From the IMG/VR virus record IMGVR_UViG_3300012983_003032: a stretch of 64,000 nucleotides of DNA. One strand, written 5' to 3'. A program made the translations under genes and the position numbers. This document shows, piece after piece, positions 8,581 through 61,767 of the stretch (within the stretch, counting starts at the first letter, position 1; every line of letters starts with the position of its first letter). The notes beneath the pieces were generated by a model that searched no databases, was not told the DNA's origin, and saw nothing but the letters and a program-made list of their open reading frames with translations. Source of the DNA: a virus.

Positions 8581-8700
8581 AGCTATGCTTGGCTAAAGAC
8601 CAAGCATATTCCCTAACATTTTAGCGTGTTAGGAGATTGTTTCGTGCATTACCCTTAACTCGCATCTGCGAGTGCCAGATTAGCCAACAATGAAGTTGAC
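8581..8700 (-). ncRNA. putative omegaRNA (reRNA) scaffold overlapping tnpB 3' end and right-end hairpins
   Basis: By analogy with characterised TnpB systems, the guide RNA derives from the tnpB 3' end plus RE. Two hairpins are present at 8585-8633. Not verified. Confidence 0.3.
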
Positions 8701-10064
8701 AACACGCTACCAGTGTCTTTTGACAGCTTCTTTTCAGAAGCCTTTTCCTGGCTTTCCTCAGCTTCCCTGAGTACTTTTATAGCTTCAGTTTTTATATTAA
8801 CTGCTGCATTTTTGTCTCGTTGATGAATTTGTCCACATTCAGGACAAATCCAATTCTCCAAATGGAATTTCTTAACTTCTGGATTCTTAAAACCACAACA
8901 AGAACAAGTTTGTGAAGAGGCAAAGAATTTGTTTACTTTGATGATATGGCATCCATATCTTTCGCCTTTCCATTTTAATTTAGAAACGAAAGTTGACCAA
9001 GAGATGTCTTGGTAATTCTTTGCGTTTCTTGAGCCTTTCATCATTCCTTGGATAGACAAATCTTCAATTCCGATAAGTTGGTTTTCCTTTGTCAGTCTCA
9101 AAGATTCTTTTTCTATCCAATCTAAACGACAATTTGCAATATGCTCTTCCAAAGAAGCAATTTTGATTCTAATTTTTTCTTTGTTTTTAGAATTTTTAAT
9201 TTTTCTTGCATATTGTCTTTGAAGATGAGAAAGTTGAGAAAGATGTTCTTGTTTTTGCTTTTTGAATCCATAATCAGCTTTAGCTGACTTTTCGTTCGAG
9301 TCTATGTACATATCATCACAGTCAAAGTCTAAACCTATGACTTGGTTTTCGTCTAAGTCTTTAACTTTGACTTTCTGCTTAAAGTCTAAATTGACTTCAA
9401 ACAAAATTGTGATGTAATATTTTCCGTTAGGTGTTCTTGAGCAAGTGTATGAACAAACTTTAGTTCTGTTTTTATACCATTTTGGTAAGTTTCTGTGAGA
9501 AAACTTAATTTTCCCAATTTTGGGAAGTTCTACAGTTTTAGAGTTCCAATCTAAGAAGTTTTGTTTCATCTGTGAGTCTTTGAAGGAATTTTTAGCTTTC
9601 TTGGAATGGAATTTTGGCTTTTCTGATTTTCCGGAAAAGAAATTGCTATAAGCAGTTCTTAAATTCATAACTGCATTTGCTTTTCCTTGACCATTAGCTT
9701 CCTTCAAAAAAGGAAATTGTTGAGTCAATTCTGAAACTTTTGGTTCGTGGTATTTCTTATATTCAGAATTCGTTATTTTTCTAATAGCTTCAAGTTCGGC
9801 CTTTAGATTTTTGATTTCTTGCTTATTTTCTTTTGAATTTTTTTGCAGCTCTTCGAGCTTTTGAACTTTTTCGTAATAGTCAAATTCTTTTCTTAATGGA
9901 ACTATGGCGTTTTCGTAGAATTGATTTTTTGAATTTAAGAGGTAGTTGTAGATGAATCTAACACAACCAAAAGTCTTGTCCAATTTAGACTTTTGTTCTT
10001 GAGATGGGTTTAGTCTGAGCTTAAGTGCTAAATTTACACTTCTGTAACTAATTGTATTAGACAT
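8655..10064 (-). CDS. tnpB: TnpB (IS605 OrfB) RuvC-like RNA-guided endonuclease homolog
   Basis: 469 aa. RuvC-I (IGLDFD), RuvC-II (IGIEDL), zinc finger CSCCGF...CPECG and RuvC-III (HQRDKNAAVNI) in canonical order. Confidence 0.9.
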   Translation of the reverse strand: MSNTISYRSVNLALKLRLNPSQEQKSKLDKTFGCVRFIYNYLLNSKNQFYENAIVPLRKEFDYYEKVQKLEELQKNSKENKQEIKNLKAELEAIRKITNSEYKKYHEPKVSELTQQFPFLKEANGQGKANAVMNLRTAYSNFFSGKSEKPKFHSKKAKNSFKDSQMKQNFLDWNSKTVELPKIGKIKFSHRNLPKWYKNRTKVCSYTCSRTPNGKYYITILFEVNLDFKQKVKVKDLDENQVIGLDFDCDDMYIDSNEKSAKADYGFKKQKQEHLSQLSHLQRQYARKIKNSKNKEKIRIKIASLEEHIANCRLDWIEKESLRLTKENQLIGIEDLSIQGMMKGSRNAKNYQDISWSTFVSKLKWKGERYGCHIIKVNKFFASSQTCSCCGFKNPEVKKFHLENWICPECGQIHQRDKNAAVNIKTEAIKVLREAEESQEKASEKKLSKDTGSVLSTSLLANLALADAS

Positions 10065-13802: not shown

Positions 13803-14231
13803 ATGGCAAGAAAACTTGAAAGTTCAGCACATTCAAAGCATCTCATAATGTACCACTTGATATTTGTGGCAAAGTATAGAAGGAAGATATTTTCTTTCCA
13901 CGACTTTGGTGACGCTTTGAAACAAAAGTTTCTTGACATTTCTTCAAACTATGAGTTTTCAATAGATACAATAGACTTGGACTACTCTAAGCCAGACCAT
14001 ATACACATTCTTGTAAGAAGTATTCCTACATTGTCACCAGACCAAATAGTAAGAGTTCTGAAACAAGAAGCAAATATCTGGGCTTGGGATAACTATGGTC
14101 CTTGGCTCAAGAAGTTTTACCATAGAAGTCATCATCTCTTTACACGTGGATACTATTGTGGTTCAGTAGGAAATGTTTCCGCAGATACAGTAGCAAAATA
14201 CTTAGAAGACCAAGGGAGGAACGGATGCTAA
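13803..14231 (+). CDS. tnpA: IS200-like Y1 (HUH) transposase TnpA
   Basis: 142 aa. HUH motif HIHILV and C-terminal catalytic Tyr region (TVAKYLEDQ), size typical of IS200 TnpA. Confidence 0.85.
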   Translation: MARKLESSAHSKHLIMYHLIFVAKYRRKIFSFHDFGDALKQKFLDISSNYEFSIDTIDLDYSKPDHIHILVRSIPTLSPDQIVRVLKQEANIWAWDNYGPWLKKFYHRSHHLFTRGYYCGSVGNVSADTVAKYLEDQGRNGC

Positions 14232-15421
14232 AAGCGTATAAATATCGTATCTATCCTACTCAAGAACAAGAAACATTTCTATGTAAAGAACTCGGTTTGA
14301 AAAGACTCTATTGGAACATCTCACTTGCAAATAAGAATGCAGACCATTCTTACAAGCTTACTTCATACAAAGAAACATTTTCAAAATATAAGCCAGAAGC
14401 ACTTGAATGGTGTAAAGAAATAGACAGTACTGCTATGGCAGATGTTTGGAATGACTTGACACAAGCGTTCAGAAACTTCTTTGCATCTTGCAATGGTACA
14501 AGAAAAGGAAAGTTCGTAAAGCCACCAAAGTTCAAGTCTAAAAAGAATATGAAAGAGTCTATTGGCTACACTGCTATGGCAAAGCCAAAGTTTGTAAACG
14601 GAAAACTTTTCATAACAAGAAAACTTGGACTTCTAAAAGGTGCATACTATTGTCAGTTCTGTGAAGGAAAGTTAAAGAACGTAACTATAAGCAGAACTGC
14701 TACTGGTAAATGGTTTGTATCTATTTGTGTTGAGAAGAAAGACGAACCAAAGAACAATAACGGCAAAGCGATAGGAATAGACTGGAACTGTAGAGATGAC
14801 GTTTTTCTTACTTTAAGTGATGGCACGAAAGTCAAGTGTCCTCGCTTCCTAAGAGAAAAGGAAAAGCAGCTAGCTCACTATCAGAAACTCATGTCTAAAA
14901 AGTTTGTGAAAGGAAAACAAAAACAGTCTCAAAACTATTACAAAGCAAAATATAAAGTTGCTAAACTTCACGAAAAGGTTTCTTGGCAAAGACAAGACTG
15001 GTTGCATAGGTTGTCTTACGACTTGGCACAAAAGTATCAGTATGTCATTGTCGAAGACATCAACTTGCAGTCTATGGCACAAATGCATCACGGAAGAGCA
15101 GTTGGTGACCAAGGGTTTGGAATGCTAAGGAGTATGATAGCTTACAAAACTACTTTAGTGAAAGTTTCAGCAAAGAATACTTCTAAGACTTGTCATACTT
15201 GTGGGTATGTAAACCCAAAGGTTGTTTTAGGTGTTGAACAATGGAAATGCCCTGTCTGTTCTTCTGAACATGACAGAGATATAAATGCAGCCCTGAACAT
15301 CTTGAATAAAGGTGTTACTAGTCTGGGCGTAGTAGGCAGGGAACGAGCCGAAAGTACAAATGCCTGTGGAGTGCCACGAAGCACTGCGAAGCAGGAAGTC
15401 CACGTTGCCATCGAGCCTTAG
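14225..15421 (+). CDS. tnpB: TnpB (IS605 OrfB) RuvC-like nuclease
   Basis: Starts MLKAYKYRIYPT (classic TnpB N-terminus); the table ORF from 14156 is a TTG extension. Contains EDINLQ (RuvC-II), zinc finger CHTCGY...CPVCS and RuvC-III HDRDINAALNI. Confidence 0.9.
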   Translation: MLKAYKYRIYPTQEQETFLCKELGLKRLYWNISLANKNADHSYKLTSYKETFSKYKPEALEWCKEIDSTAMADVWNDLTQAFRNFFASCNGTRKGKFVKPPKFKSKKNMKESIGYTAMAKPKFVNGKLFITRKLGLLKGAYYCQFCEGKLKNVTISRTATGKWFVSICVEKKDEPKNNNGKAIGIDWNCRDDVFLTLSDGTKVKCPRFLREKEKQLAHYQKLMSKKFVKGKQKQSQNYYKAKYKVAKLHEKVSWQRQDWLHRLSYDLAQKYQYVIVEDINLQSMAQMHHGRAVGDQGFGMLRSMIAYKTTLVKVSAKNTSKTCHTCGYVNPKVVLGVEQWKCPVCSSEHDRDINAALNILNKGVTSLGVVGRERAESTNACGVPRSTAKQEVHVAIEP

Positions 15422-24735: not shown

Positions 24736-24832
24736 TCTAATATTTAGTCAAGCAAAATGTTTTTTAAAAAAGTGTTAATATGTTAGTAAGTCCACAGTAT
24801 TGTGGGTATATTTATTTTTAAGAGGTGATATT

Positions 24833-25051
24833 TTGTCACAGGTTGTAAAAGTAATCGTAGAGGACACAGGTCATCCTGAAAAAGACCTTGAACGAGCTCT
24901 ACGTAAATTCCGAAAGGAAGAAGAAGCCGAAGACATTCTTAATGAAATTAAGAAACGTCAGTATTTTACAAAACCTTCTGCTATAAAACATGAACAGAAG
25001 AAACATTCAGCACACAAGGCTGAATTAGAAAAAAAAGAAAAAGGAAGGTGA
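24833..25051 (+). CDS. rpsU: ribosomal protein bS21 homolog (phage-encoded)
   Basis: MSQVVKVIVEDTGHPEKDLERALRKFRKEEEAEDILNEIKKRQYFTKPSAIKHEQKK parallels E. coli bS21 ([47 protein letters not shown]). TTG start at 24833 with AAGAGGTGA SD; the table ORF from 24800 is an upstream TTG extension. Confidence 0.75.
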   Translation: MSQVVKVIVEDTGHPEKDLERALRKFRKEEEAEDILNEIKKRQYFTKPSAIKHEQKKHSAHKAELEKKEKGR

Positions 25052-25114: not shown

Positions 25115-25238
25115 AAGTATGTATACTTGTGTGAACGGAGTCTCAGTTAAATACTTTAGTATATTTCTTCCCCATATACTAAATATGTACGATTTGTTTG
25201 TAAATTACAAACATTTAAAATTAAAAAGGGGGATAAAA

Positions 25239-26162
25239 TTGGAAACAGTTAAAGTGAAAATGTCAGATGGAAAAGAAATTGTATTAAACAAATTTCTACC
25301 ATCTAAAAAAATTAAAGCTGTAATAGTATTACATCACGGTCAAACAGAGCACTCTTTAAGATATACTCATTTTGCAGATTTCTTAAACAAAAATGGTATA
25401 GCATTGTATGCTCACGACGGAAGATGTCATGGTCAATCCGTAGATAAAATCGAAGATTTGGGTTACTTAGACTACAATAAAGGGTTTGATACAGTAACTT
25501 CGGATTTGCATACTATTATTGAAACTTGCCGTAAAGATTTACCTGACGTTAAAGTTTTTATTGCAGGACACTCATTTGGTTCTTTTATTGTTCAAAATTA
25601 TATTGAAAAATATAAAGCAGATAATGAAAACTTCGGTGGTGCAATATTATTAGGTTCTGCAGGACCAAAACCATTCTTAATGTTTGCAGGTATTTTACTA
25701 GCAAAAGTAGTTACATTTTTCAAAGGTAAAAAAGGGATAAGTAAATTACTCCATAAAGTAATGCACGGTTCTTATAATGACCATTTCCCTGGTGAGGGTG
25801 AAAATGCTTGGTTGACTCGCGATAAAGAAATTCAAAAGGCATTTGAAGATGACCCTAGATGTGGATTTGAACCTACAAACGCATTTAGACATACATTCTT
25901 AAAAGGTTTATTTAACATCCATAGACAAAAGAACCTTGCTAAAATAGATGTGGATTTACCAATTTTAATTATGTCTGGTACAGAAGACCCAGTAGGTGAC
26001 TATGGTAAATCTGTAGATAAATTGGTATCAGCATACAAAGATTATAGAATCAAATCACTTAAAGTAAAAATGTATAAAGACGCAAGACACGAACTCTTAA
26101 ACGAGTTGAATAAAGATGAAGTTATGAAAGACCTTTTAGATTGGGTTAAAGAAAAACTTTAA
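25239..26162 (+). CDS. alpha/beta-hydrolase, lysophospholipase / monoacylglycerol-lipase family
   Basis: VLHHGQTEHSLRYTHFADFL...HDGRCHGQS (HG oxyanion region), nucleophile elbow GHSFGS, and later Asp/His. TTG start at 25239 after GGGGG SD (alternative ATG 25260); the table ORF from 25119 is an extension. Confidence 0.75.
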   Translation: METVKVKMSDGKEIVLNKFLPSKKIKAVIVLHHGQTEHSLRYTHFADFLNKNGIALYAHDGRCHGQSVDKIEDLGYLDYNKGFDTVTSDLHTIIETCRKDLPDVKVFIAGHSFGSFIVQNYIEKYKADNENFGGAILLGSAGPKPFLMFAGILLAKVVTFFKGKKGISKLLHKVMHGSYNDHFPGEGENAWLTRDKEIQKAFEDDPRCGFEPTNAFRHTFLKGLFNIHRQKNLAKIDVDLPILIMSGTEDPVGDYGKSVDKLVSAYKDYRIKSLKVKMYKDARHELLNELNKDEVMKDLLDWVKEKL

Positions 26163-26169
26163 AGTAAAA

Positions 26170-26197
26170 GTCCTAAGGGTTCCTTAGGACTTTTTTA
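26170..26197. terminator. bidirectional intrinsic terminator (gtcctaagg-gtt-ccttaggac + TTTTTT)
   Basis: 9-bp perfect stem between convergent genes. Confidence 0.65.
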
Positions 26198-26201
26198 ATG
26201 A

Positions 26202-26876
26202 TTAAAGATTATTAATCAAAATAAGTGCAACAAAATAAAGACTAAATCGGATTAGTTCTTTAAGTAATTTAATACAAAAAGTTTTGAAAACTCCAGATGC
26301 AGAATTTTTTTCTGCTTTCCTAATTTTAAAGTTCGCAAATTCGTTATAAAGACTATCTACCAATTTTTTAATTTCGTTTTGTTCTTTTTTAAGAACAGCA
26401 ATGTCTTCTTCATTTTCAGTAATTTCTTCATTTTGAGCTTGGTCAATTTTAACAGACTCAATTTTTACTTCATTTAAATCATTTTTTACTTTTTTAATAA
26501 TTGAATCATTTTTTATGTCTTTTTCTTTCAAATCTTTAATTTTATCTTTCAATTCACTATAGTCTTTAACACTAGCTGCTTTGATTGCTTGAATTTCTTT
26601 GTCAATTTTATTTTCCAAGTTTTGTACTTTAGAAAGTTTAACTCCTTCTTTTGCTAATTCATCTGTTTTCTGAATTAACTCATATACTTTTTGGAACAAT
26701 AATTCATCAATCTCATCTTGAGACTTGTTTGTTTTACTAACAGCTGAAGTTTCATCTATCAAAAGATTAACATAATCTGTCAATTCTTTGATAGCAGCAG
26801 TCTGAGCTTCATTAACTTTAGTATTTGTGTTAATCTTTTCAAGCTCTTCTTTTAATTTCGCTAATAACTCATTCAT
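26202..26876 (-). CDS. coiled-coil protein with C-terminal TM anchor (224 aa)
   Basis: Heptad-rich E/K sequence; C-terminal LYFVALILINNL. Confidence 0.5.
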   Translation of the reverse strand: MNELLAKLKEELEKINTNTKVNEAQTAAIKELTDYVNLLIDETSAVSKTNKSQDEIDELLFQKVYELIQKTDELAKEGVKLSKVQNLENKIDKEIQAIKAASVKDYSELKDKIKDLKEKDIKNDSIIKKVKNDLNEVKIESVKIDQAQNEEITENEEDIAVLKKEQNEIKKLVDSLYNEFANFKIRKAEKNSASGVFKTFCIKLLKELIRFSLYFVALILINNL

Positions 26877-27023: not shown

Positions 27024-30000
27024 ATGAAATCATTTCGTCTTATATTTGTAGACCAAGATGAAAGCTATACAGTACAAACTGTTACTAGCCCTATTAAAGG
27101 TTTCATTTCAGTACGTGCCCCTAAAGGTACAACTGAAGCAATGTATTTTGAATACGGAAATGAAAAGGCAATAGATGCTATGATAGGTCTTGGTACTGCT
27201 GATTGGCCTGATATTAAAGAGGCAGTGGCATTTAACAGGTCTTATGGACTTTATATTTCTGCACCACCAGGAAATTGTGAAGACTACCCTACATATTATG
27301 GTGGATGTTATTTAACAACAAAAGGTTTATTTAACTTCTGGAGAGTAAATGACCCAGACGAACCTTCTTTTGATATTCAAGTTTACCCAGGATTTGAAAA
27401 TGTAGACTATGATGAAACTTTTGCTAAGTCAGAAATTGATGTTGTAGATATCAATACTGAGGCAGGAAAATCTTCTATTATTAAGATTACAAATATCGAC
27501 GCAAGAGTTTTCCAGAGAATGTCTTACTTTACTCTTAAATGTTGGGCAGACACTTCTACAAGAATTGGTGAAAATGAAGAAATTAAATATCACTTGGTAA
27601 ACGGAAAGATTTTCTCAGTTTATGACGACGAAGATTCTGAAATTCAAGCAGGTTTCTATGAACTTACAAGTGACGGTACTTATAATATCATTTTAGGTGC
27701 AACCGCAATTACTTCTCAAGACGATATCGTTCCAATTGATAAAAACATTACTACAGTTGTTGTTGTAACACCTTCTGCTACTAACGGTGGAGAAACTACT
27801 ACAGTAAGTTCTTTCTCTAGAGCAAGATTTGTAAGTACTTATAAATTAAAAGAAGGAAGATTCTTCTATAAAGATAAGGCTTGCACTGTACAGGCTGGTA
27901 TTTCTTCAACTGACGCAGATGGAAACACTATTACTGAGGATATGCCATCTACAGTATATGTAAAGGCAGCAGATATTGACACATTAAATGTAACAAAATA
28001 TACACCATCAAAGAATACTTTGAGTACACCTCATGTACCATACTTTGATATGACAAAGTTCTTGGGTGAGTATAACGCATTTGATATTTCAACAATTTAT
28101 TCTGATGATATTGAAGGACTTACAGGTCTTGAACTTATTAGATATCTTATCTTGAATGGATGTAGTAGTCTTGTTACTCTTAAAGGTAAGTTCAATAATG
28201 CAAATGTTGAAAAATACATTACTCCTACAGTTGGTCTTGTAGATAGAATCTACTGGAATATCAATGTAAAGAATGACTGTTTTATGTACGTTTCTCAGAA
28301 GTCACCTAACGAAACTCCTACTTCTATCACTATTAGTAACATTGGTTATGATAAGTATAAGTATGATATGCACGTTAGCTACATTTTGAAATCTGACTTC
28401 GACAAATTCAGAGACGGCTCTGTTGCACCTGACGGATTTATCAAAGCTGTTATTGCAAGTAATGCTGACGGTATTATTGACGTAGTAACTTCTACAGCTG
28501 AAAAAGACTTCTTAACACCAAGTACTAACCTCCATGCACTTTATCAGTATAGTACTGTAACAGGTGAATGGGTAGACGTTACACCAAATTATAAGACTAA
28601 GACTTTCTATATTGACGGACCTTTGGATTGTAAAGGTGTTAATGATAATAGTACAGTTAATGCTTTCTGTAAGTATACAATCTGGAAGATTGTAAATGTA
28701 AAAAAACCTGACTCATTTGAACATGAAACATATCAGATGAAGAATGGTGGAAACTATCCTTTGAAGTCTGATATTAACTATAACACTGTAACTATTTCTT
28801 GTAAAGAAAAAGTTTACCCAGGTACTTATACAACTGGTGGTACACATTATGGTTCTTTGAACCCAGAAGGTGTAGATGCAGCAGGAACAAATATTTATTT
28901 CCCTAACGTTCTTCCTAATGAAGAAACTGCTACATTCTTTAATGTTTATCCAGTTCATACTTTAGAGGAATTAGGTTGTGTAAATGATAATGGATTCTAT
29001 ACTGGTGTTAAGATTGTTGACCCAATCGGACCAGAACAAGATACATATACATTTACTATTAAAGGTCAGAGACCTATGACAGCCGCAGTTCAGGCTAACA
29101 TTGATGCAGGTACTGTAGGATGTGCTTGGACAACTAACGAAGTTTATGGTACTAGAGTAGACGCAATCTTCGAGGCTGCAATTAATGACTCTATTATTGA
29201 ATGTCAGGACGATATCTATGACGATGCACTTGTTATTATGGAATGTTCTGGACAGGAAGTATTTAAGTCTGCTTTAATGTCTTTAAGACAATCTCACCGT
29301 GATACAAGTACTATTATCTCTCCAAAGATTATTACTAAGGCAGAGTTTAATAATCCAAATACTATTGTAGTAAATGGTCGTGTAACAGGTACTGCACAGT
29401 ATATCGGTGAATTCAAGATGTATGACTCTAACACAGGTAAGTATTACTGGTGTCAACCAATTGGTGACGTTGGTGCTATGCTTGCTCGTATTATGGAAAA
29501 GAAATATGGTGGAATTGCACCTGCGGGTACAAATGATAGTCAGGGTCTTGGTGGTGTTCTTCCAAGAGCAGTTCTTGCTGCAAAGTGGAACTTCAAAGAT
29601 TCTCAGTTACAGATTCTTGACGGAAAAGGTTTGAACCCTATCACATTTGACTCAAAATATGGTCTTATGATGCAAGGTCAGAAAACAACTCAAGACCCAG
29701 ATAACGTAACTGACTGGTCTTACCTTGGACACTCAATGTCATTTGACTTGTGTAAACGTGAAATCCGTGATAACGTAATGGTTAAACAAGTTCACAAACG
29801 TATTAGTGATAACTACTTCACTATTCGTGAAAAGCAGGTTAAGGCTATCCTTGACAAACGTACAACTGGTAATGACCCTATTTGGGCACTTGCTACTGTT
29901 GACGTTGCTGGTGTTAATACTCCTTCAACTATGGCACAGAGAAAGTTCTGTATCAAGGTTAAAGTTAAAGTGTACGTGTACAGCGATTTTGTGGAACTCA

Positions 30001-30026
30001 CATTCGTTACGCTCGGACAGGAGTAA
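27024..30026 (+). CDS. large virion structural protein (1000 aa), beta-rich
   Basis: Strong SD AAGGAGA. T/S/N/V-rich composition typical of capsid/sheath/fibre proteins. Unusual C-terminus KVKVKVYVYSDFVELTFVTLGQE. Confidence 0.6.
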   Translation: MKSFRLIFVDQDESYTVQTVTSPIKGFISVRAPKGTTEAMYFEYGNEKAIDAMIGLGTADWPDIKEAVAFNRSYGLYISAPPGNCEDYPTYYGGCYLTTKGLFNFWRVNDPDEPSFDIQVYPGFENVDYDETFAKSEIDVVDINTEAGKSSIIKITNIDARVFQRMSYFTLKCWADTSTRIGENEEIKYHLVNGKIFSVYDDEDSEIQAGFYELTSDGTYNIILGATAITSQDDIVPIDKNITTVVVVTPSATNGGETTTVSSFSRARFVSTYKLKEGRFFYKDKACTVQAGISSTDADGNTITEDMPSTVYVKAADIDTLNVTKYTPSKNTLSTPHVPYFDMTKFLGEYNAFDISTIYSDDIEGLTGLELIRYLILNGCSSLVTLKGKFNNANVEKYITPTVGLVDRIYWNINVKNDCFMYVSQKSPNETPTSITISNIGYDKYKYDMHVSYILKSDFDKFRDGSVAPDGFIKAVIASNADGIIDVVTSTAEKDFLTPSTNLHALYQYSTVTGEWVDVTPNYKTKTFYIDGPLDCKGVNDNSTVNAFCKYTIWKIVNVKKPDSFEHETYQMKNGGNYPLKSDINYNTVTISCKEKVYPGTYTTGGTHYGSLNPEGVDAAGTNIYFPNVLPNEETATFFNVYPVHTLEELGCVNDNGFYTGVKIVDPIGPEQDTYTFTIKGQRPMTAAVQANIDAGTVGCAWTTNEVYGTRVDAIFEAAINDSIIECQDDIYDDALVIMECSGQEVFKSALMSLRQSHRDTSTIISPKIITKAEFNNPNTIVVNGRVTGTAQYIGEFKMYDSNTGKYYWCQPIGDVGAMLARIMEKKYGGIAPAGTNDSQGLGGVLPRAVLAAKWNFKDSQLQILDGKGLNPITFDSKYGLMMQGQKTTQDPDNVTDWSYLGHSMSFDLCKREIRDNVMVKQVHKRISDNYFTIREKQVKAILDKRTTGNDPIWALATVDVAGVNTPSTMAQRKFCIKVKVKVYVYSDFVELTFVTLGQE

Positions 30027-30044: not shown

Positions 30045-30197
30045 CCACTACAGCCTACTAATTAGTGTTAATATATATACTAAGGAGTAGGCTTCAAGTT
30101 TAAAACTTATAATGATTTAATAACCTTTGCAGTAAGCAGAAATTGGAATAGGAACTCATATGAATATTTAGAGTTACATCATATTTTACCAAAAAAT

Positions 30198-31166
30198 ATG
30201 GGAGGAAACGATAGTCCTGAAAATTTGGTTTTTTTAAAAGTTGGGGAACACGTTGAAGCACATTATTTATTTGCAATGGAGCATCAATGGAATAAAAAAA
30301 TATATTATGCAAACTTAAATGCAGCTTGGATTATTATACATGGAAAAACTTTAGGTAGTAATATTAGAAGTCAATATATATCAGACTGGTTAAAAGATAA
30401 GGACAATCAAGATAAATTATCTGAAATAAAATTATTATTACGTAATCAACCCAGACCAAAAAGAAATATTGAAAAACAACCCCATTATTGGATGGCCCTA
30501 AATACTAGGTATCCAAGTTATGTTACAGAAAAGAGTATTTTTAAGTATTTACAAACAGGGTATATAAAACTAGACGACTGCCCTATATGTCATAATCCTA
30601 ATTCTGAAACTTCTTTTGCTTGTTGCAAAGAACATGAAGAACAATATATACTACAGAAAAAACAAGAGTATAAGACCCTCAAGGCAGAACAAACAAGAGA
30701 GTCTTGGACTAGACAAGAGGATAGAGAACTTCGTATTAAGAACAGCTTGGGTAAGAATACTGAAAAAGGAAGGTTCTTTTGGGCAACCAATGGAGTAGAA
30801 GACATTCAAATATTCAAGGGTGAAGATATTCCTGACGGATATATTAGAGGGCGTTCTAAGAATATTCCTACTCCTAATCATACAGACGAATCAAAAAGAA
30901 AACAGTCTGAACGTAGAAAAAATTGTTGTTATGTATGGAAGGATGATGTCCCTTGTAAAGAAATACAAAAGTCTGAATTAGAGGAATATTTAAGTCAAGG
31001 TTGGCATAGAGGAAGAAAACCTGGGACAGTAAATAGACCTAAAGGATTTAAACAACCTCAAATGGCTTGGGTAAATAAAAATGGTGAAATATTAAAGATA
31101 AGAGCAGATGACTTAGACAAGTACATATCTAATGGATATTCCAGGGGCAGAGGTTCTAAAGTTTAA
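30198..31166 (+). CDS. HNH homing-endonuclease-like protein; conserved HNH motif is encoded upstream of the first ATG
   Basis: In-frame upstream sequence (open from 30084) reads ...YEYLELHHILPKN-M-GGNDSPENLVFLKVGEHVEAH (H-H...N...H HNH signature). There is no ATG/GTG/TTG in frame before 30198. The rest is K/R-rich with CxxC ... C ... H pairs. Confidence 0.65.
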   Translation: MGGNDSPENLVFLKVGEHVEAHYLFAMEHQWNKKIYYANLNAAWIIIHGKTLGSNIRSQYISDWLKDKDNQDKLSEIKLLLRNQPRPKRNIEKQPHYWMALNTRYPSYVTEKSIFKYLQTGYIKLDDCPICHNPNSETSFACCKEHEEQYILQKKQEYKTLKAEQTRESWTRQEDRELRIKNSLGKNTEKGRFFWATNGVEDIQIFKGEDIPDGYIRGRSKNIPTPNHTDESKRKQSERRKNCCYVWKDDVPCKEIQKSELEEYLSQGWHRGRKPGTVNRPKGFKQPQMAWVNKNGEILKIRADDLDKYISNGYSRGRGSKV

Positions 31167-31279
31167 TTGTATTTTTATTTTTAAAAATAATTATTTTTTT
31201 AACTACCCCACACGTAAAATCAAATATTTAAGATTTGTTAATATATTTTTATAAATATAAAATTTTGGAGGTTAAAGCA

Positions 31280-32773
31280 ATGTTATTTATTGCAGGTATT
31301 GTAGCAGTAGTACTTTTGATATTACTGTTTATTACATCTTACATTAAGGCTTCACCTGATGAGGCTTTAATTGTTTCAGGTCTTCGTAAAAAACCAAAGA
31401 TTATTATTGGTAAGTCGGGATTTAGAATTCCTTTCTTGGAAAAGAAAGACCGACTCTCTCTTAAACTTATCCCTATTGATGTAAAAACCAGCTCGTCTGT
31501 ACCGACTGCAGACTATATCAACATTAATGTTGACGCAGTAGTAAACGTAAAAGTTTCAGATGACTTTGAAAAAATTAATCTTGCAGCACAGAACTTCTTG
31601 AATAAAGATACTGAAAAAATTGGTGCAATTGCCCGCGAGGTACTTGAGGGTAATATGCGTGAGATTGTAGGACAGATGACATTGGAACAGATGGTTTCTG
31701 ACCGACAAACTTTTGCCGAAAAAGTAAAGGATAATGCAGCTCCAGACCTTGCAAAGATGGGATTGGATATTGTTTCTTTTAATGTTCAGAACTTTATTGA
31801 TAATAATAATGTTATTGAAGACCTTGGTGTTGATAACATTACTAAAATTCGTAAAAAGGCTGCAATTGCAAAGGCACAGTCTGAAAAGGAAATTGCTGTT
31901 GAACAAGCTAAGGCTCGTAAAGAGGCAAATGACGCAAAGATTGAGTCTGATACACAGATTGCTATTAAAGAAAATGCACTTGCATTGAAGAAGTCTGAAT
32001 TGGACGCAAAAGCGGGTACTGAAAAGGCAAAGGCAGATGCAGCATATAAGATTCAACTTGAGGAACAGAGGAAAACTCTTGAAATTACAACTGCAAACGC
32101 AAATATTGCAAAGCAGGAAAAAGAGGTAGAAATCCGTCGTAAAGAAGTAGAAGTCCAGGAACAAACTCTTGACGCACAAATCAAGAAACAAGCAGAGGCA
32201 GATAAGTATGCAGCATTACAAAAAGCCGACGCAGATTTGTATACTCGTCAGAAAGAGGCTGAGGCAAGAGCATTTGAACTTCAAAAACAAGCTGAGGCAG
32301 AGGCTTATCAGAGACAGAAGAAAGCAGAGGCAGATAAAGCTGCAATGGAAAATGAAGCAACTGGTAAGAAAGCTCTTGCAGAGGCTGTTCAGGCACAAGG
32401 TGAGGCAGAAGCCGAGGCAATTAAAGCTAAACTTGTTGCAGAAGCTGATGGTATGCGTGAAAAGGCAGAGGCACTTAAAGAATATGGTGATGCTGCTAAA
32501 CAACAAATGCAACTTGACGCACTTAAAGTTTACTTTGAACAGTTGCCAAAGATTGCAGAGGCAGCAGGTAAAGCATACCAGAGTGTTGACAAGATTTATA
32601 TGTACGGTGGAGACTCTTCAAAGTTGCAAAGTGATATTATGAAGAATGTTACACAGGTTTCAGAGGGTCTTGGTCAGACAATGGGTATTGACCTTAAAAC
32701 ACTTCTTGGTGCTTTCGTAGGTAGTAAACTTGCTGGCAAAGGCACAGACTTAGAATTGCCTAAGACAGAATAA
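31280..32773 (+). CDS. SPFH (band-7/flotillin-like) membrane protein with long coiled-coil EA-rich tail
   Basis: N-terminal TM MLFIAGIVAVVLLILLFI, then a YqiK/flotillin-like SPFH core (ALIVSGLRKKPKIIIGKSGFRIPFLEKKDRLSLKLIPIDV...INVDAVVNVKV), then a ~250-aa KAEA-repeat coiled coil. ATG at 31280 after GGAGG; the table ORF from 31235 is an extension. Confidence 0.75.
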   Translation: MLFIAGIVAVVLLILLFITSYIKASPDEALIVSGLRKKPKIIIGKSGFRIPFLEKKDRLSLKLIPIDVKTSSSVPTADYININVDAVVNVKVSDDFEKINLAAQNFLNKDTEKIGAIAREVLEGNMREIVGQMTLEQMVSDRQTFAEKVKDNAAPDLAKMGLDIVSFNVQNFIDNNNVIEDLGVDNITKIRKKAAIAKAQSEKEIAVEQAKARKEANDAKIESDTQIAIKENALALKKSELDAKAGTEKAKADAAYKIQLEEQRKTLEITTANANIAKQEKEVEIRRKEVEVQEQTLDAQIKKQAEADKYAALQKADADLYTRQKEAEARAFELQKQAEAEAYQRQKKAEADKAAMENEATGKKALAEAVQAQGEAEAEAIKAKLVAEADGMREKAEALKEYGDAAKQQMQLDALKVYFEQLPKIAEAAGKAYQSVDKIYMYGGDSSKLQSDIMKNVTQVSEGLGQTMGIDLKTLLGAFVGSKLAGKGTDLELPKTE

Positions 32774-32782: not shown

Positions 32783-32821
32783 AAAAAGGTATATCCTATT
32801 ATATAGGATATACCTTTTTAT
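32783..32821 (+). terminator. intrinsic terminator (aggtatatcctat-tata-taggatatacct + TTTTT)
   Basis: 13-bp perfect stem. Confidence 0.65.
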
Positions 32822-32942: not shown

Positions 32943-33725
32943 ATGATAAAAATTTTACCTTGGACTTATAAAGACCCTTTAAACATGATAGGGGCATGTG
33001 CAGGATACTGTTGGGGAAGTAATACTACTAATCCCGAAGAAAATATAAAACGTGCAAAGTTTTGTATTAAAAGTAATCATGGTCGAGTTGAGGAATTTCC
33101 CGATATTTATTGTACAATAGACGGATATTCTGCGCGTTGTATTCGTGAATTATCAAGACATTGTGTGGGAACAACTTTTTTACAAAGTAGTACCAGATAT
33201 GTTGACGCAAAGGATATGAATCCTAGAGAGGACTTTTTTTATCCGTATGGTCTTGATACGACCCAAACAGACGTTCTTTTTAAAGGTTATAAGAAAATAA
33301 TGGAAACTTATAATGAATTAGAAAGTTTAGATGTAAATAAAGAAGATGCTGCAAATATTTTACCATTAGGAATGAATACTGACATAGTATGGAAATTAAA
33401 TGTTAGGGCATTAATCCATTTTATGGAGTTAAGACTTTGCAGTCGTGCATATAAAGAGATTCGTCAATTATGTATTGAACTTAAAAATAAGATGTCTGTA
33501 TATTCCGAAGAATGGAAATGGATTGCAGATAACTATTTTGTTCCGTCCTGCAAAACTCGTGGGTATTGTATTGAGGCTCAGTGTTGTGGTGTAGCACCTA
33601 AAGGTCTTAAAGGCCTTCAAGAAAAAAATATTACTGATTTTGTAAAATACTTATCTGAAAATACTACTGTGGATATAACTACAATAAAGGATATTATTCC
33701 AAGCTTTTTGGAGGAACCTAAATGA
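32943..33725 (+). CDS. thyX: flavin-dependent thymidylate synthase ThyX
   Basis: ThyX signature RHRx7S present as LSRHCVGTTFLQSSTRY; size 260 aa. Confidence 0.85.
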   Translation: MIKILPWTYKDPLNMIGACAGYCWGSNTTNPEENIKRAKFCIKSNHGRVEEFPDIYCTIDGYSARCIRELSRHCVGTTFLQSSTRYVDAKDMNPREDFFYPYGLDTTQTDVLFKGYKKIMETYNELESLDVNKEDAANILPLGMNTDIVWKLNVRALIHFMELRLCSRAYKEIRQLCIELKNKMSVYSEEWKWIADNYFVPSCKTRGYCIEAQCCGVAPKGLKGLQEKNITDFVKYLSENTTVDITTIKDIIPSFLEEPK

Positions 33726-34763: not shown

Positions 34764-36935
34764 ATGGAAAAAAGAATAAGATTTAGTGAAGTACAGCTAA
34801 ATAGTGAAGTAGGTGATGTTCTTAAAAAAATTGCTAAATCATCGTCATTAAAGTTATCTGATAAAGCTATTAATGATGCTATTTTAGCTTGTGACGTATA
34901 TGAGCCTTTTACTAGTAAAAAAAGAGAGGATATTGAAAAGCCTGAGGCTGAAAATTATAATACTGTACCTGACGACTACTTTGATAGTAATATAGATTTT
35001 AGCCGTAATGATAAGGGTACTAAGTCACTTAGTAAAGATGTACGCAACGCTCAAATTCATACATATGGAAAAGACCTTCTTCAGAACGCCCCAAATATTA
35101 AAAAAGACACTTGGGATATGAAGGCTGCACTTACAACAGGTCAAAAAATTAAAATTGTTATTTCTGACCCTGACTATGAAAGAATTGGTATTCAAAATGA
35201 GGCAATTCTTTTAAATACTTATATTTATTTAATGGGTAAAGGTCCTCAACCAGCAGTGTTGGCAAGACCTGCTTGGGAGGATAAAGACGGGAATTTGATT
35301 GTTTCTGACGAGCCTATAAATGTAGAACAGATTAGAACCTACCTTTTGGTTCAATTTTCATATAATATTAGACAAGGTATGTTTGACGTATTAAGACCTA
35401 GTGTTAATAGTGATAATCCTACACAAGATAGATTAAGACGTAAGTGGGGATTGGCAAAAACTTTGGCTTGTGCCCCTGAAGATTTGGACTTAGATTGGTT
35501 CTATACATTAGGTATGTTATTCTTAACAGAAGGCTTCTGGGACACTGTTAGGGCAACAAGTAATCTTAGTAGGGTTAGAGACAACCCTAATAAAGACGGT
35601 GAAGGAATAACAGAGGAAGATATTGCGGAATTGTCTAAAACTAATCCAGGAAAGGGAACATTAAATGTAGACAAGGGATTACTTCTTGACACTAAAACTC
35701 AGGAATATCTTTCATCTGCTAAGGCATTTAATATGGACCACTATGATGATAGTGTAACTTGTCTTATGAACTGGATAGGGTATCAGATTAGATTAAGATT
35801 TAACTATTATAGGAAAATAATAGGTGTGCAGCAAATAAGAACTTTAAGTTCTACTCATACTGTTTCTGCAGACGAAATGCAAAGTCAGGTTGATGAAAAG
35901 TCAGGTGCAAGTAGACTTGAAAAAGAGATGTTTAAGTCTGGGGCATATATTGATTCTCCAGAAGACAAAATTGCACTTAATCAGAGTCTTGAAGCTTTCT
36001 TTAAGAAAGAAAAATATTGGTTAACTGATGAAGTAGAAAACTTCAATGATACTTACCCAATTTTAAGATATATGGCTGCAATGATTGAATATCCTTGTTG
36101 TCCTGGAACAATTATCCTTAATGCAGTAGGCAGTGGGCATATTGACCCTAAGGGTAAACATATTAATAACTGGGCTGGTATATTTACTTCAGATAGAAGA
36201 CCTGCAAAAGGTTCGTTAACACAATTATCAATCAAGGTTTCTAAAAAATTAAAGGAGTATGGAATACTTGATTTCTTTATGGGATTAGTTAATCACTTTG
36301 GTGGTGAAGTATATAGAACTAAGATTCTTAATAATTTGAAAAAAATCTTTGATGAGTTTGAGGGTACTCCAGATAAGTCTGCTACTATACCTCTTACATT
36401 TAAGCCTCATACAGAGAGTGAAATAAGAAGTATTCAAACTAAGGGTGTAGGATATTGGTATCTTGTAGATAATAACTATGTTCAGAGAAGTCTTGATAAA
36501 TGGGATAAATATAGTAAGCCTCTTGAAGGTACAGAAAATGAAAACCTAATAGAACTTGGTGAAAATATGATTATGGATGCTTGTGATTATAATATGAACG
36601 CCATTGTTTCTACATATGCGTATAGTCCTATTACTTCTCTCTTAAAGAAAACACCAGAAATAAGAGAACTTTTGGATAATACTGCAAAAAAAGCTGAAGA
36701 TGAAGAGAATGAAAGACATAAGGCAAGTATGGAAAGAATAAATAAGGCATTGGCAAAAGACGCTGGTGTTAGAAGTGAAGAAGACCTTTCAAATTGGGAT
36801 AATGTTGATGAAGATGATATTGATAATACAAAAATCTTAAACGTGAATGAGTCTATCTTTAAGTCTATCTATAAGAAATATATGAAGAAAAAGTTGTTTG
36901 AGACTATTTATAAAAATGCTCAAAAAAGAGGCTAA
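34764..36935 (+). CDS. major virion structural protein candidate (723 aa; monocistronic, flanked by strong terminators)
   Basis: SD AAGAGGA upstream. Flanking terminators suggest high expression. Major capsid or sheath role is inferred from context only. Confidence 0.6.
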   Translation: MEKRIRFSEVQLNSEVGDVLKKIAKSSSLKLSDKAINDAILACDVYEPFTSKKREDIEKPEAENYNTVPDDYFDSNIDFSRNDKGTKSLSKDVRNAQIHTYGKDLLQNAPNIKKDTWDMKAALTTGQKIKIVISDPDYERIGIQNEAILLNTYIYLMGKGPQPAVLARPAWEDKDGNLIVSDEPINVEQIRTYLLVQFSYNIRQGMFDVLRPSVNSDNPTQDRLRRKWGLAKTLACAPEDLDLDWFYTLGMLFLTEGFWDTVRATSNLSRVRDNPNKDGEGITEEDIAELSKTNPGKGTLNVDKGLLLDTKTQEYLSSAKAFNMDHYDDSVTCLMNWIGYQIRLRFNYYRKIIGVQQIRTLSSTHTVSADEMQSQVDEKSGASRLEKEMFKSGAYIDSPEDKIALNQSLEAFFKKEKYWLTDEVENFNDTYPILRYMAAMIEYPCCPGTIILNAVGSGHIDPKGKHINNWAGIFTSDRRPAKGSLTQLSIKVSKKLKEYGILDFFMGLVNHFGGEVYRTKILNNLKKIFDEFEGTPDKSATIPLTFKPHTESEIRSIQTKGVGYWYLVDNNYVQRSLDKWDKYSKPLEGTENENLIELGENMIMDACDYNMNAIVSTYAYSPITSLLKKTPEIRELLDNTAKKAEDEENERHKASMERINKALAKDAGVRSEEDLSNWDNVDEDDIDNTKILNVNESIFKSIYKKYMKKKLFETIYKNAQKRG

Positions 36936-37777: not shown

Positions 37778-38224
37778 ATGGACAACTTGAATAAGATTGT
37801 ATATTATGCACAGGCTTTTGCAAATGACCTCAAATATATTTATCTTCACTGTATGGGTAAAGATTTCGACACAATTCGTACATTATCAAATGAATTATGG
37901 ATAGAGTTAAATGCCGAAATAGATGAAATGTCAGAAATATTTATTCTTAACGGTATTGAAATAGATAATCCAAGTGAAATAAAGTCACAGTTAGACTTTG
38001 ACACAGAATGGCCAGCCACAAATAATCAAATTATTCAATTCCAGGACTTTGTACAAGAGTTAAAAATTAAAGGGTCAAAGTATTTATTGGAATTAGAAAA
38101 TGCTGCACTTCCAAAAGATATAAAGTATATATATATTAACTTTTGGAGAAATAAAGTACTTTTTAGAAGCCAAAGGTATGCAGTACCCGAAAATAATTTT
38201 GATAGGTTGGGTGAAGATGATTAA
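37778..38224 (+). CDS. hypothetical protein (148 aa)
   Basis: ORF. Confidence 0.4.
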   Translation: MDNLNKIVYYAQAFANDLKYIYLHCMGKDFDTIRTLSNELWIELNAEIDEMSEIFILNGIEIDNPSEIKSQLDFDTEWPATNNQIIQFQDFVQELKIKGSKYLLELENAALPKDIKYIYINFWRNKVLFRSQRYAVPENNFDRLGEDD

Positions 38225-38657
38225 TTTTAATCCTATACGAGCAGAAGTACTTTTTAATCAAATTGATAAGTTCTCAAGATATTTCCCTTTTTCTGTGGAC
38301 TATATAGGGTGCCCTGAATTTAGGACAGAAAAATATGAATGGTTTTTTATTACTGACGATTCATTCAGTACTGCTGAGGAAAAAGAAACTTGGTTAGGAT
38401 TAGTTTGCGTTACTGAAAACAAATATTTAGGTGGGCAGAATATACATTTAAGTGTATTAGAAGTTGCAGAACCATTAAGAAACTTAAATATAGGTACTTC
38501 AATAGTAGATAGATTTATTGATATCTCTAGGAGAAGTGGATATGAGACCTTATCTCTACAAATTAGAAACAGAGACCTTTTAAGGTTCTATAGACGATTT
38601 GGATTTAGGGACGTAATTTTAAAAGGAGGTATGGAACTAGAAGTTCTAGATTTATGA
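38178..38657 (+). CDS. GNAT-family acetyltransferase (probable); true start possibly ATG 38217
   Basis: RNLNIGTSIVDRFI (acetyl-CoA motif) and C-terminal FYRRFGF. Confidence 0.5.
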   Translation: MQYPKIILIGWVKMINFNPIRAEVLFNQIDKFSRYFPFSVDYIGCPEFRTEKYEWFFITDDSFSTAEEKETWLGLVCVTENKYLGGQNIHLSVLEVAEPLRNLNIGTSIVDRFIDISRRSGYETLSLQIRNRDLLRFYRRFGFRDVILKGGMELEVLDL

Positions 38658-61304: not shown

Positions 61305-61755
61305 AAAGATTCTGGTGTACTACAATAGGTGTTTCTGGGAAGAGTGCCTTCAAAATAGTGAAATTACTTGCTACACAAATCCCTGTGCAGACCCCGCTCA
61401 TTTCAATAACTTCTGGATTTACGTCATTGAGCTCATTTGCAAAGAAAACATCCCAATTATTGTATCCAAAACTTGGTTTATTAACATAGTAGTCAACAAA
61501 TGGTTTAAGTTCGTCTACAACTTCCCAACCCTCAGTGTCTTTAATACAATGTGGAACTGGGAGATTTTTTCCTTCCTGAGTTTCCATATAATTGTCATCG
61601 TGAGTATCACGAGTAGCAATAATTGTGTAACCTTTTTTTTCAAGTTCTTTTGCTTTATCAGCAATCCCTTTGATAATTCCTACTGCAGCGTCATTTTTAA
61701 GACTACCTGTGCAGAAGTCATTTTGCATGTCAACAATAATAAAATATTTTCCCAT
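61231..61755 (-). CDS. pncA: nicotinamidase/pyrazinamidase (isochorismatase-family cysteine hydrolase)
   Basis: FIIVDMQNDF (catalytic Asp), TRDTHDDNY...H (metal site), K in VNKPSFG, and nucleophile Cys in GVCTGICV. Confidence 0.75.
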   Translation of the reverse strand: MGKYFIIVDMQNDFCTGSLKNDAAVGIIKGIADKAKELEKKGYTIIATRDTHDDNYMETQEGKNLPVPHCIKDTEGWEVVDELKPFVDYYVNKPSFGYNNWDVFFANELNDVNPEVIEMSGVCTGICVASNFTILKALFPETPIVVHQNLCACLNDESHKAAIKVMEVQQAILR

Positions 61756-61767
61756 ATTACCTCCAAA

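What the first reader, a model, noticed from the sequence alone, without database searches (positions are those of the whole stretch)
31280..32773. SPFH/flotillin-like membrane scaffold with ~250-aa KAEA coiled coil encoded by a phage
SPFH proteins organise membrane microdomains. A phage-encoded flotillin-like protein next to HNH and ThyX is unexpected. It could modulate host membrane organisation during infection or mimic or antagonise host SPFH-containing defence components.
Basis: partly seen in the sequence, partly recalled or inferred. Interest (0 to 1): 0.5.

Follow-up and report, generated by a model that had tools for sequence, protein, structure and literature searches.

The report
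Host-derived flotillin gene in a megaphage
A very large gut bacteriophage carries an intact, strongly conserved copy of a bacterial flotillin (a protein that builds cage-like scaffolds on the inner face of the cell membrane); the gene is real and clearly phage-borne, but similar genes turn out to be common in large gut phages, so it is a solid but not exceptional find whose function is still untested.

Summary
The ORF at 31280-32773 (+) is real and is a full-length flotillin-family SPFH protein of 497 aa. It has an N-terminal membrane anchor, a Band_7 domain, a ~215-aa Ala/Glu/Lys-rich helical region and a C-terminal Flot domain. It matches human flotillin-1 at E 1e-52, and the predicted structure has the flotillin cryo-EM complex as its best match.

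The element is a phage. The 1000-aa gene just upstream folds as a T4-like contractile tail sheath, a ribosomal S21 gene lies nearby, and the window's own proteins sit on a 425-kb contig.

The gene keeps its position in related 437-460-kb contigs, with dN/dS of 0.02-0.07. Its closest cellular relatives are gut Bacillota and one Treponema MAG (55-67% identity).

- At least 139 IMG/VR viral contigs encode relatives, in at least six lineages.
- One lineage is ~85% identical to Lachnospiraceae genes.
- GenBank phages already carry "flotillin family protein" annotations.

No PADLOC defence model matches it.

Most likely it is a host-derived auxiliary gene that supplies flotillin scaffolds to keep the host membrane functional during a long infection. 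That function is inferred, not shown.

Verdict: new member of a known kind, moderate interest.

The parts
31280..32773 (+). Flotillin-family (SPFH) protein gene, 497 aa
   Evidence: ORF and translation. Pfam Band_7 and Flot. PDB flotillin-1/2 at E 1e-52 / 8e-48. Foldseek best match is the flotillin complex. dN/dS 0.02-0.07 against L001 and L002. The exact sequence lies on a 425,174-bp contig.
31280..31345 (+). N-terminal hydrophobic membrane anchor (aa 1-22, MLFIAGIVAVVLLILLFITSYI)
   Evidence: 60% of residues are L, I or V and none is charged. AlphaFold2 predicts a helix at aa 2-20. Hydrophobic in all homologues.
31346..31888 (+). SPFH / Band 7 domain (aa 23-203)
   Evidence: Pfam PF01145, E 3.3e-26. 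pLDDT 75-91. The mouse flotillin-2 Band 7 domain 1win superposes at TM 0.76 and rmsd 2.5 A.
31838..32479 (+). Ala/Glu/Lys/Gln-rich helical 'flotillin' region (aa 187-400). In solved flotillin cages this region forms the wall.
   Evidence: Predicted helices 187-242 and 249-388. 64% A+E+K+Q. Aligns with flotillin-1 residues 4-313 and 275-416.
32402..32605 (+). C-terminal Flot domain (aa 375-442)
   Evidence: Pfam PF15975, 32 bits against a cutoff of 27.
31267..31271 (+). Ribosome-binding site GGAGG, 8 nt before the ATG
   Evidence: Read directly from the sequence. Conserved in L001, L002 and L003.
31170..31191 (+). AT-rich block TATTTTTATTTTTAAAAATAAT upstream of the gene. It is identical in all four relatives although the preceding gene differs. 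It may be the remnant of a terminator tail or a promoter element.
   Evidence: Alignment. Occurs once in the window. Function not established.
32783..32819 (+). Perfect 17-bp hairpin directly after the stop codon; likely an intrinsic terminator that makes the gene its own transcription unit
   Evidence: Folding energy -21.9 kcal/mol, z -6.6. A hairpin at the same position but with a different sequence is present in L001, L002 and L003.
27024..30026 (+). Contractile tail sheath protein (1000 aa), the gene that establishes phage identity
   Evidence: No Pfam or PHROG hit. A family profile weakly hits the Pvc3/Afp3 sheath C-terminus. The AlphaFold2 model has pLDDT 82.9. Foldseek best matches are T4 gp18 and the Klebsiella phage KP1 sheath, E 2e-14.
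30096..31166 (+). HNH-type homing endonuclease-like ORF, probably decaying. It is present in the window and L001 and absent in L002 and L003.
   Evidence: The motif ELHHILPKNMGGNDSPENLVFLKVGEHVEAH is present. Pfam HNH and HNH_4 give E 0.003 on the L001 copy, below threshold. The ATG of L001 reads AAG here.
32943..33725 (+). ThyX flavin-dependent thymidylate synthase, the downstream neighbour
   Evidence: Pfam Thy1, E 8.6e-36.
24800..25051 (+). Ribosomal protein S21 homologue. By general knowledge this is an accessory gene often reported in huge phages.
   Evidence: Pfam PF01165, E 2.1e-9. Also present in L001 and L002.

Best explanation
Identity (shown). This is an intact flotillin-family SPFH protein encoded by a huge (about 425-460 kb) contractile-tailed phage of an animal or human gut community. 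The gene came by horizontal transfer from gut bacteria. It sits in a fixed position between the tail sheath gene and thyX, as its own transcription unit, and is under strong purifying selection.

Mechanism (inferred). After infection the protein inserts into the host cytoplasmic membrane through its N-terminal hydrophobic helix. It then oligomerises through its long Ala/Glu-rich helices and C-terminal domain into the dome-shaped SPFH cages seen for flotillin-1/2 and HflK/C, either alone or mixed with host flotillin. In this way the phage supplies a membrane-organising and envelope-stress function that the host would normally induce itself. In Bacillus subtilis, flotillin genes belong to the sigma-W regulon, which responds to membrane stress including phage infection. 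This would keep membrane fluidity, membrane-bound enzyme complexes and envelope integrity intact during a long megaphage replication cycle and would prevent premature cell failure.

In short, it is an auxiliary 'host-maintenance' gene.
For: Identity:
- Pfam Band_7 and Flot domains.
- Full-length match to the NCBIfam FloT model, positions 7-475 of 477.
- Human flotillin-1/2 at E 1e-52 / 8e-48.
- Confident SPFH fold, with flotillin cages as the best structural matches.

Phage origin:
- Tail sheath fold of the upstream gene.
- S21 gene.
- ORFan-rich contigs of 425-460 kb with the same gene order in independent assemblies.

Functional constraint:
- dN/dS is 0.024 against L001 and 0.068 against L002.
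- 91.5% amino-acid identity to L002, where neighbouring genes range from 37 to 94%.
- 216 of 246 positions conserved in cellular homologues are kept, and the 30 changes are mostly conservative.

Host-like origin and repeated usefulness:
- The closest cellular homologues are gut Bacillota and a Treponema MAG at 55-67%, in ordinary chromosomal contexts.
- At least 139 IMG/VR contigs carry relatives, falling into at least six lineages. One lineage is ~85% identical to Lachnospiraceae genes. Their neighbours are phage-type genes: polynucleotide kinase, PhoH, endolysin and helicase.

Own transcription unit: RBS and conserved terminator hairpin.

Stress link: FloA and FloT are sigma-W regulated, and sigma-W is triggered by membrane stress including phage infection (PMC8581546).
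Against: - Nothing here measures function, localisation, oligomeric state or time of expression.
- The AlphaFold2 model is a monomer, and its C-terminal third has low confidence (pLDDT 35-53).
- The host is unknown, so whether it has its own flotillin is unknown.
- The protein scores 261 bits against the NCBIfam FloT equivalog cutoff of 700, so equivalence with B. subtilis FloT cannot be assumed.
- Strong conservation fits a supplement equally well as a phage-specific use of the scaffold.
- No papers on phage flotillin function were found.
Confidence: 0.6

Rival explanations
1. Hijack or poison subunit. The phage flotillin co-assembles with host flotillin or displaces it to re-wire the membrane for the phage. 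Possible uses are blocking envelope-stress signalling, excluding superinfecting phages at the membrane, or controlling the timing of holin-mediated lysis.
For: At 55-67% identity to cellular flotillins, mixed oligomers are plausible; by general knowledge, human flotillin-1 and -2 are less similar to each other and still co-assemble. The megaphage clade has 30 fixed differences at positions conserved in cellular homologues, including charge changes A208E, K248E, K394E and D246G in the helical wall. In IMG/VR lineages B and D, the flotillin gene lies within about 2-4 kb of an endolysin gene.
Against: Most fixed differences are conservative, and 88% of conserved positions are retained. No lysis genes were identified beside the gene in this window. 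Lineage A is ~85% identical to host genes, which suggests that the unmodified host function is what gets selected.
Confidence: 0.2
2. Protease-cage regulator. Like HflK/C around FtsH, the phage SPFH cage encloses a membrane protease or another membrane enzyme and tunes the stability of phage or host proteins.
For: HflK/C-FtsH, QmcA-YbbJ and prohibitin cages are all clear structural matches (E 1e-9 to 1e-12). HflK/C is the classic SPFH link to phage biology, through lambda cII stability (PMC8540360).
Against: The best sequence and structure matches are flotillins, not HflK/C. No NfeD or FtsH gene was found among the roughly 55 window ORFs scanned. The nearest cellular homologues have no conserved partner gene.
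Confidence: 0.1
3. Scaffold for a phage-specific membrane structure, for example a membrane patch or vesicle that shelters incoming DNA or anchors a replication or assembly site.
For: Flotillin cages enclose and curve a defined membrane patch (structures 9bq2 and 9l3g). The gene recurs mainly in large phages of 70-424 kb. It lies next to structural genes here.
Against: There is no direct evidence. The protein is close to cellular flotillins and has no added domains. No conserved phage partner gene travels with it except NAD-salvage genes.
Confidence: 0.07
4. Not a phage gene. A bacterial flotillin appears here through misassembly, chimeric binning or a prophage flank.
For: Close homologues are abundant in gut bacteria. 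IMG/VR can include provirus flanks.
Against: The same gene order (sheath, flotillin, thyX and so on) is seen in at least three independent assemblies from different samples. GC3 of the gene (27%) matches its phage neighbours (21-24%). Identity to the nearest cellular gene is only 67%. No bacterial housekeeping neighbourhood is present.
Confidence: 0.03

Closest known systems
Bacterial flotillins of the FloT/YuaG type (flotillin family protein; NCBIfam NF058507; Pfam Band_7 + Flot)
   Same: Same length and architecture: N-terminal hydrophobic anchor, SPFH domain, Ala/Glu-rich helical region and C-terminal Flot domain. The alignment to the FloT model is full-length. Identity to gut Bacillota and Treponema proteins is 55-67%.
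   Different: It is encoded by a phage. It scores 261 bits against the FloT equivalog cutoff of 700. It has no adjacent NfeD (yuaF-like) gene, although its nearest cellular relatives lack one too.
Eukaryotic flotillin-1/flotillin-2 complex (PDB 9bq2, 9l3g)
   Same: Homologous over nearly the whole length (E 1e-52, about 30% identity), and it is the best structural match.
   Different: The eukaryotic proteins are anchored by acylation and hairpins (general knowledge) and form hetero-oligomers of two paralogues. The phage encodes a single protein with a transmembrane-like N-terminus. Oligomer formation was not tested here.
Previously annotated phage SPFH/flotillin genes (Vibrio phage KIT04 and phage csAssE-Sib 'flotillin family protein'; PHROG 200; Band 7 proteins of N4-like, Pseudomonas and Xanthomonas phages)
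   Same: They are phage-borne SPFH proteins of unknown role (PMC13239085, PMC8540360, PMC13384950).
   Different: The KIT04 and csAssE-Sib hits reach only ~28% identity and cover about half the protein. Most phage Band 7 proteins are short, stomatin- or HflK-like, at 170-330 aa. This one is a complete flotillin close to cellular genes.
HflK/HflC-FtsH cage of E. coli
   Same: Same SPFH fold and cage-forming helices. It has a historical link to phage lambda lysogeny control.
   Different: It is only a distant relative: no significant sequence hit to HflK/C in the PDB search, and Foldseek identity is 16-18%. No FtsH partner was seen.

Membership tests
Flotillin family (SPFH superfamily) | SPFH / Band 7 domain | tested here: met
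   PF01145 at E 3.3e-26, 92.8 bits against a cutoff of 23.6. Fold confirmed.
Flotillin family (SPFH superfamily) | C-terminal flotillin (Flot) domain following Ala/Glu-rich helices | tested here: met
   PF15975 at 32 bits against a cutoff of 27. Helices 187-388, with 64% A+E+K+Q.
Flotillin family (SPFH superfamily) | N-terminal membrane anchor | tested here: met
   aa 1-22 are hydrophobic and uncharged and are predicted as a helix. No dedicated topology predictor was run.
Flotillin family (SPFH superfamily) | Full-length homology to structurally characterised flotillins | tested here: met
   phmmer against PDB gives flotillin-1 at 1.3e-52 and flotillin-2 at 7.7e-48, covering query residues 23-472.
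Flotillin family (SPFH superfamily) | Assembly into large ring or cage oligomers on the membrane | not testable with these tools
   Only a monomer model was made. Testing needs multimer prediction or experiment.
B. subtilis FloT equivalog (NCBIfam NF058507) | Score above the curated equivalog cutoff | tested here: not met
   261.1 bits against a cutoff of 700, although the alignment is end to end. It is therefore filed as a flotillin family protein, not as FloT itself.
SPFH-NfeD operon pairs | Adjacent NfeD-family partner gene | tested here: not met
   No NfeD hit in neighbouring ORFs. The partner is also absent next to the closest cellular homologues.
Tailed phage with contractile tail (huge phage) | Tail sheath protein | tested here: met
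   The model of ORF 27024-30026 matches T4 gp18 and other phage sheaths at E 2e-14.
Tailed phage with contractile tail (huge phage) | Major capsid protein, portal and terminase | not tested
   None was recognised by Pfam or PHROGs among the window ORFs scanned. The rest of the 425-kb contig was not available.
Anti-phage defence components or their mimics | Similarity to a known defence-system protein | tested here: not met
   No PADLOC-DB model matches at E <= 0.01.

The most novel reading that the evidence does not exclude
Large gut phages repeatedly capture flotillin because the SPFH cage does something specific to phages. It could build or protect a defined membrane patch that shields the infection from membrane-targeting abortive-infection effectors or from superinfecting phages, or it could organise a membrane-anchored replication or assembly site. 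That would make flotillin capture a general, so far undescribed counter-defence or compartment strategy of jumbo phages and megaphages.
Probability: 0.12. Interest if true: 0.75.

Novelty: new member of a known kind. Interest (0 to 1): 0.38.

Why it matters
Flotillins are among the least understood membrane organisers in bacteria. A phage that keeps one under strong selection is a natural experiment on what the scaffold is good for. The wider pattern found here is that at least 139 viral contigs in several independent lineages carry flotillin genes, mostly on large gut phages and often near NAD-salvage genes. This suggests that maintaining the host membrane is a recurring need of long-cycle phages. 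It also offers compact, portable flotillin variants for testing in model Bacillota. No new kind of protein or mechanism is implied.

Tried and rejected
- Megablast of 24 kb around the gene against 50,697 GenBank phages gave no match. tblastn of the sheath protein against the same set gave no match. A close-relative scan of IMG/VR with the sheath protein found nothing. The phage therefore has no sequenced close relative in those sets.
- Pfam and PHROG scans of the large neighbouring ORFs (832, 645, 1066, 439, 442, 249, 493, 1781, 279, 369 and 723 aa) were almost all empty. Phage identity had to be shown through structure prediction of the sheath instead.
- I searched for a repeated promoter motif using the conserved AT-rich block upstream of the gene. 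It occurs once only. The generic sigma-70 scan was no better than shuffled sequence (42 sites against 39 expected), so expression timing could not be inferred.
- I looked for a conserved operon partner. In 80 bacterial loci the neighbours are unrelated housekeeping genes. In phage loci only PncA and NadE recur.
- Host inference failed. Cluster look-ups of ten window proteins returned no organism names. GC and GC3 comparison of the Treponema MAG gene with its flanks did not settle the direction of transfer.
- Defence mimicry was checked and rejected: no PADLOC hit.
- The ORFs overlapping the gene on other frames (31556-32191 minus strand, 32169-32642 plus strand, 32216-32512 minus strand, 31734-31988 plus strand) were dismissed as by-products of the repetitive GCA/GAA/AAA codon usage of the helical region. 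They are 'conserved' in relatives only where flotillin is.
- Seven literature searches found no study of a phage flotillin's function.

Full report
**1. Is the feature real?**

ORF 31280-32773 on the plus strand encodes 497 aa. The ATG at 31280 is preceded by GGAGG at 31267-31271. The same 497-aa sequence is an independent gene call in JGI, ENA and Logan assemblies, named 'flotillin' by JGI, and it lies on a contig of 425,174 bp.

- Pfam gives Band_7 (E 3.3e-26, aa 23-203) and the C-terminal Flot domain (32 bits against a cutoff of 27, aa 375-442).
- The NCBIfam FloT model aligns end to end (positions 7-475 of 477). It scores only 261 bits against an equivalog cutoff of 700.
- phmmer against all PDB chains finds human flotillin-1 (E 1.3e-52) and flotillin-2 (E 7.7e-48) over residues 23-472. 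QmcA is a distant hit.

**2.

An AlphaFold2 model built on a 26-sequence alignment has mean pLDDT 68.6. The N-terminal helix and SPFH domain are confident (pLDDT 75-91 for aa 1-175). Long helices span 187-242 and 249-388, and the C-terminal third has low confidence.

Foldseek against the PDB ranks the two flotillin cryo-EM complexes first (9l3g and 9bq2, E about 1e-22). HflK/C, stomatin, prohibitin, erlin, QmcA and major vault protein follow. The isolated flotillin-2 Band 7 domain superposes at TM 0.76 and rmsd 2.5 A. The SPFH fold is confirmed.

The Ala/Glu/Lys-rich helical stretch is real: aa 187-400 are 64% A+E+K+Q. It is about 200-245 residues long rather than 250.

**3. Is it phage?**

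Pfam, PHROGs, PDB sequence search and tblastn against GenBank phages gave nothing significant for the 1000-aa ORF directly upstream (27024-30026). Its family has 87 members, found on contigs up to several hundred kb. A profile of that family touches the C-terminal motif of the Pvc3 and Afp3 sheath proteins only weakly (E 0.06 and 0.3).

The AlphaFold2 model is good (pLDDT 82.9, pTM 0.74). Its best structural matches are T4 gp18 and the Klebsiella phage KP1 sheath at E 2e-14, followed by dozens of other phage, tailocin and contractile-injection-system sheaths.

Other observations point the same way:
- A ribosomal protein S21 gene lies at 24800-25051.
- A GroEL gene lies at 56241-57914.
- ThyX is the downstream neighbour.
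- Long co-directional runs of ORFans fill the window.
- Nearly identical or related gene orders occur on independent contigs of 460,660 and 437,441 bp.

Together this identifies a huge contractile-tailed phage. Capsid, portal and terminase genes were not recognised inside the window.

**4. Local anatomy**

The gene looks like a transcription unit of its own.
- Upstream lies a 113-nt AT-rich spacer. It contains a 22-nt block that is identical in all four relatives even though the preceding gene differs.
- Immediately downstream lies a perfect 17-bp hairpin (32783-32819; -21.9 kcal/mol, z -6.6). L001 has a hairpin at the same place with compensatory changes, and L002 and L003 have one with an entirely different sequence.

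The 'HNH' neighbour (30096-31166) carries an HH...N...H motif. Pfam HNH scores are sub-threshold, E 0.003 on the intact L001 copy. The gene is present in the window and L001, and an 85-aa ORF takes its place in L002 and L003. In this window the start codon has mutated from ATG to AAG. This is the behaviour of a decaying mobile endonuclease gene and is unrelated to flotillin function.

**5. Selection and origin**

Against L001, dN/dS is 0.024. Against L002 it is 0.068, at a dS of about 0.9. Amino-acid identity to L002 is 91.5%, while neighbouring genes range from 37 to 94%.

The best is a Treponema MAG from horse faeces (67%). Erysipelotrichales, Lachnospiraceae (mostly Acetatifactor) and other gut Bacillota follow at 55-63%. 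These genes lie in ordinary chromosomal neighbourhoods with no conserved partner and no NfeD.

Of 246 alignment columns that are at least 95% conserved in the cellular set, the megaphage clade keeps 216. The 30 fixed differences are mostly conservative. The gene is therefore a captured bacterial flotillin that still behaves like one at the sequence level.

**6. How unusual is it?**

- tblastn against GenBank phages finds 11 records, two already annotated 'flotillin family protein'.
- BFVD holds a 473-aa viral flotillin-like model (E 4e-20) and many phage and giant-virus Band 7 proteins.
- IMG/VR yields 14 close loci with a single-sequence query and at least 139 confirmed contigs with an alignment query. 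Most are 70-200 kb, and a few are 348-424 kb.

The neighbours in these loci are phage-type genes: polynucleotide kinase, phosphoesterase, PhoH, endolysin, helicase, methyltransferase and PHROG-only families. They share nothing with the bacterial flotillin neighbourhoods.

Pairwise distances split the phage genes into at least six lineages. One of them (L004-L006) is ~85% identical to Lachnospiraceae genes. This indicates repeated and sometimes recent capture from hosts.

In four of the six lineages, including this one, homologues of a PncA-like nicotinamidase and NadE lie on the same stretch of sequence as the flotillin gene. They are within 10 kb in the IMG/VR loci and about 28-30 kb away here.

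**7. Mechanism**

What is shown:
- membrane-anchor sequence
- SPFH fold
- flotillin helices and C-terminal domain
- strong constraint
- repeated capture by phages

What is inferred: the protein inserts in the host inner membrane and forms flotillin cages, alone or with host subunits.

The best-supported reading is a host-maintenance auxiliary gene. In B. subtilis both flotillins are in the sigma-W regulon, which is triggered by membrane stress including phage infection (PMC8581546; also noted in bioRxiv 10.1101/2023.09.29.560134). A phage that takes over host transcription would lose that response. It could replace it with its own copy, keeping membrane fluidity and membrane-bound machinery working during a long replication cycle.

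The rivals cannot be separated with sequence data:
- a poison or hijack subunit (superinfection exclusion, lysis timing, blocking stress signalling)
- an HflK/C-like protease cage
- a scaffold for a phage-specific membrane structure

Defence mimicry has no support, since no PADLOC model matches.

**8. Verdict**

It is a new member of a known kind: phage-borne SPFH and flotillin genes already exist in annotations, although I found no functional study (PMC13239085, PMC8540360 and PMC13384950 call the role unclear). Interest is moderate. The most useful result is the pattern of repeated flotillin capture by large gut phages.

Noticed in passing
window 60636-63435 (- strand): An NAD-salvage-type cluster: PncA-like isochorismatase/nicotinamidase (61231-61755), a histidine phosphatase family protein (61768-62355) and NAD synthase NadE (62626-63435). 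PncA and NadE homologues lie within 10 kb of the flotillin gene in three other phage flotillin lineages (L004/L005, L015, L016). This could be a phage NAD-replenishment module.
   Followed up: partly
window 27024-30026 (+): The 1000-aa tail sheath has no Pfam, PHROG or GenBank-phage match and was recognisable only by predicted structure. Its 87-member family occurs on contigs of 200-940 kb, which suggests a poorly described clade of huge phages.
   Followed up: partly
window 30096-31166 (+): The HNH-like ORF is present in the window and L001 and absent in L002 and L003. In the window its start codon reads AAG instead of ATG, and 5 T are deleted from the upstream T-run. It looks like a decaying homing endonuclease.
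   Followed up: yes
window 32943-33725 (+): ThyX is only 59% identical to the L001 copy, while flanking genes are 86-98% identical. This points to allelic replacement of thyX between closely related phages. The spacer between flotillin and thyX also lacks the one or two small ORFs present in L001, L002 and L003.
   Followed up: partly
window 34764-36935 (+): A 723-aa ORFan is much more divergent than its neighbours: 52% to L001 and 44% to L002, against 86-97% for adjacent genes. It may be a fast-evolving host-interaction protein.
   Followed up: no
window 25119-26876: An alpha/beta hydrolase (Hydrolase_4, 25119-26162, +) and a 224-aa coiled-coil-like ORF (26202-26876, -) lie between S21 and the sheath gene. 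L001 and L002 have small unrelated ORFs there instead. This is a recent insertion or replacement and could point to the host.
   Followed up: no
window 8655-10064 (-) and 13803-15421 (+): Two IS200/IS605-family elements lie inside the phage: a lone TnpB (OrfB_IS605 plus Cas12f1-like TNB domain), and a TnpA (Y1 transposase) with a TnpB.
   Followed up: no
window 56241-57914 (+) and 24800-25051 (+): Phage-encoded GroEL (PHROG 5725, E 6e-128) and ribosomal protein S21.
   Followed up: no
window 38178-38657 (+): A GNAT acetyltransferase lies about 5.4 kb downstream of the flotillin gene and is conserved in L001 and L002. From memory, the B. subtilis floT operon (yuaF-floT-yuaI) also ends in a GNAT gene. 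This is probably coincidence and was not examined.
   Followed up: no
window 31556-32191 (-), 31734-31988 (+), 32169-32642 (+), 32216-32512 (-): Long ORFs overlap the flotillin gene in other frames and appear 'conserved' in relatives. They are by-products of the repetitive Ala/Glu/Lys codons of the helical region, not genes.
   Followed up: yes
window 1122-3230 (-), 5915-6823 (+): An SNF2-type helicase with weak similarity to the ZorD/DrmD helicase domains, and a Cas4-like PD-(D/E)XK nuclease.
   Followed up: no
L020 9024-10000: In the Treponema MAG, the flotillin gene (the closest cellular relative of the phage gene) is preceded by about 1 kb of non-coding DNA. That stretch has several copies of AAAACAAAAGGGACAGAGTAAA and a duplicated ~200-nt segment. 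The direction of transfer between phage and Treponema is unresolved.
   Followed up: no
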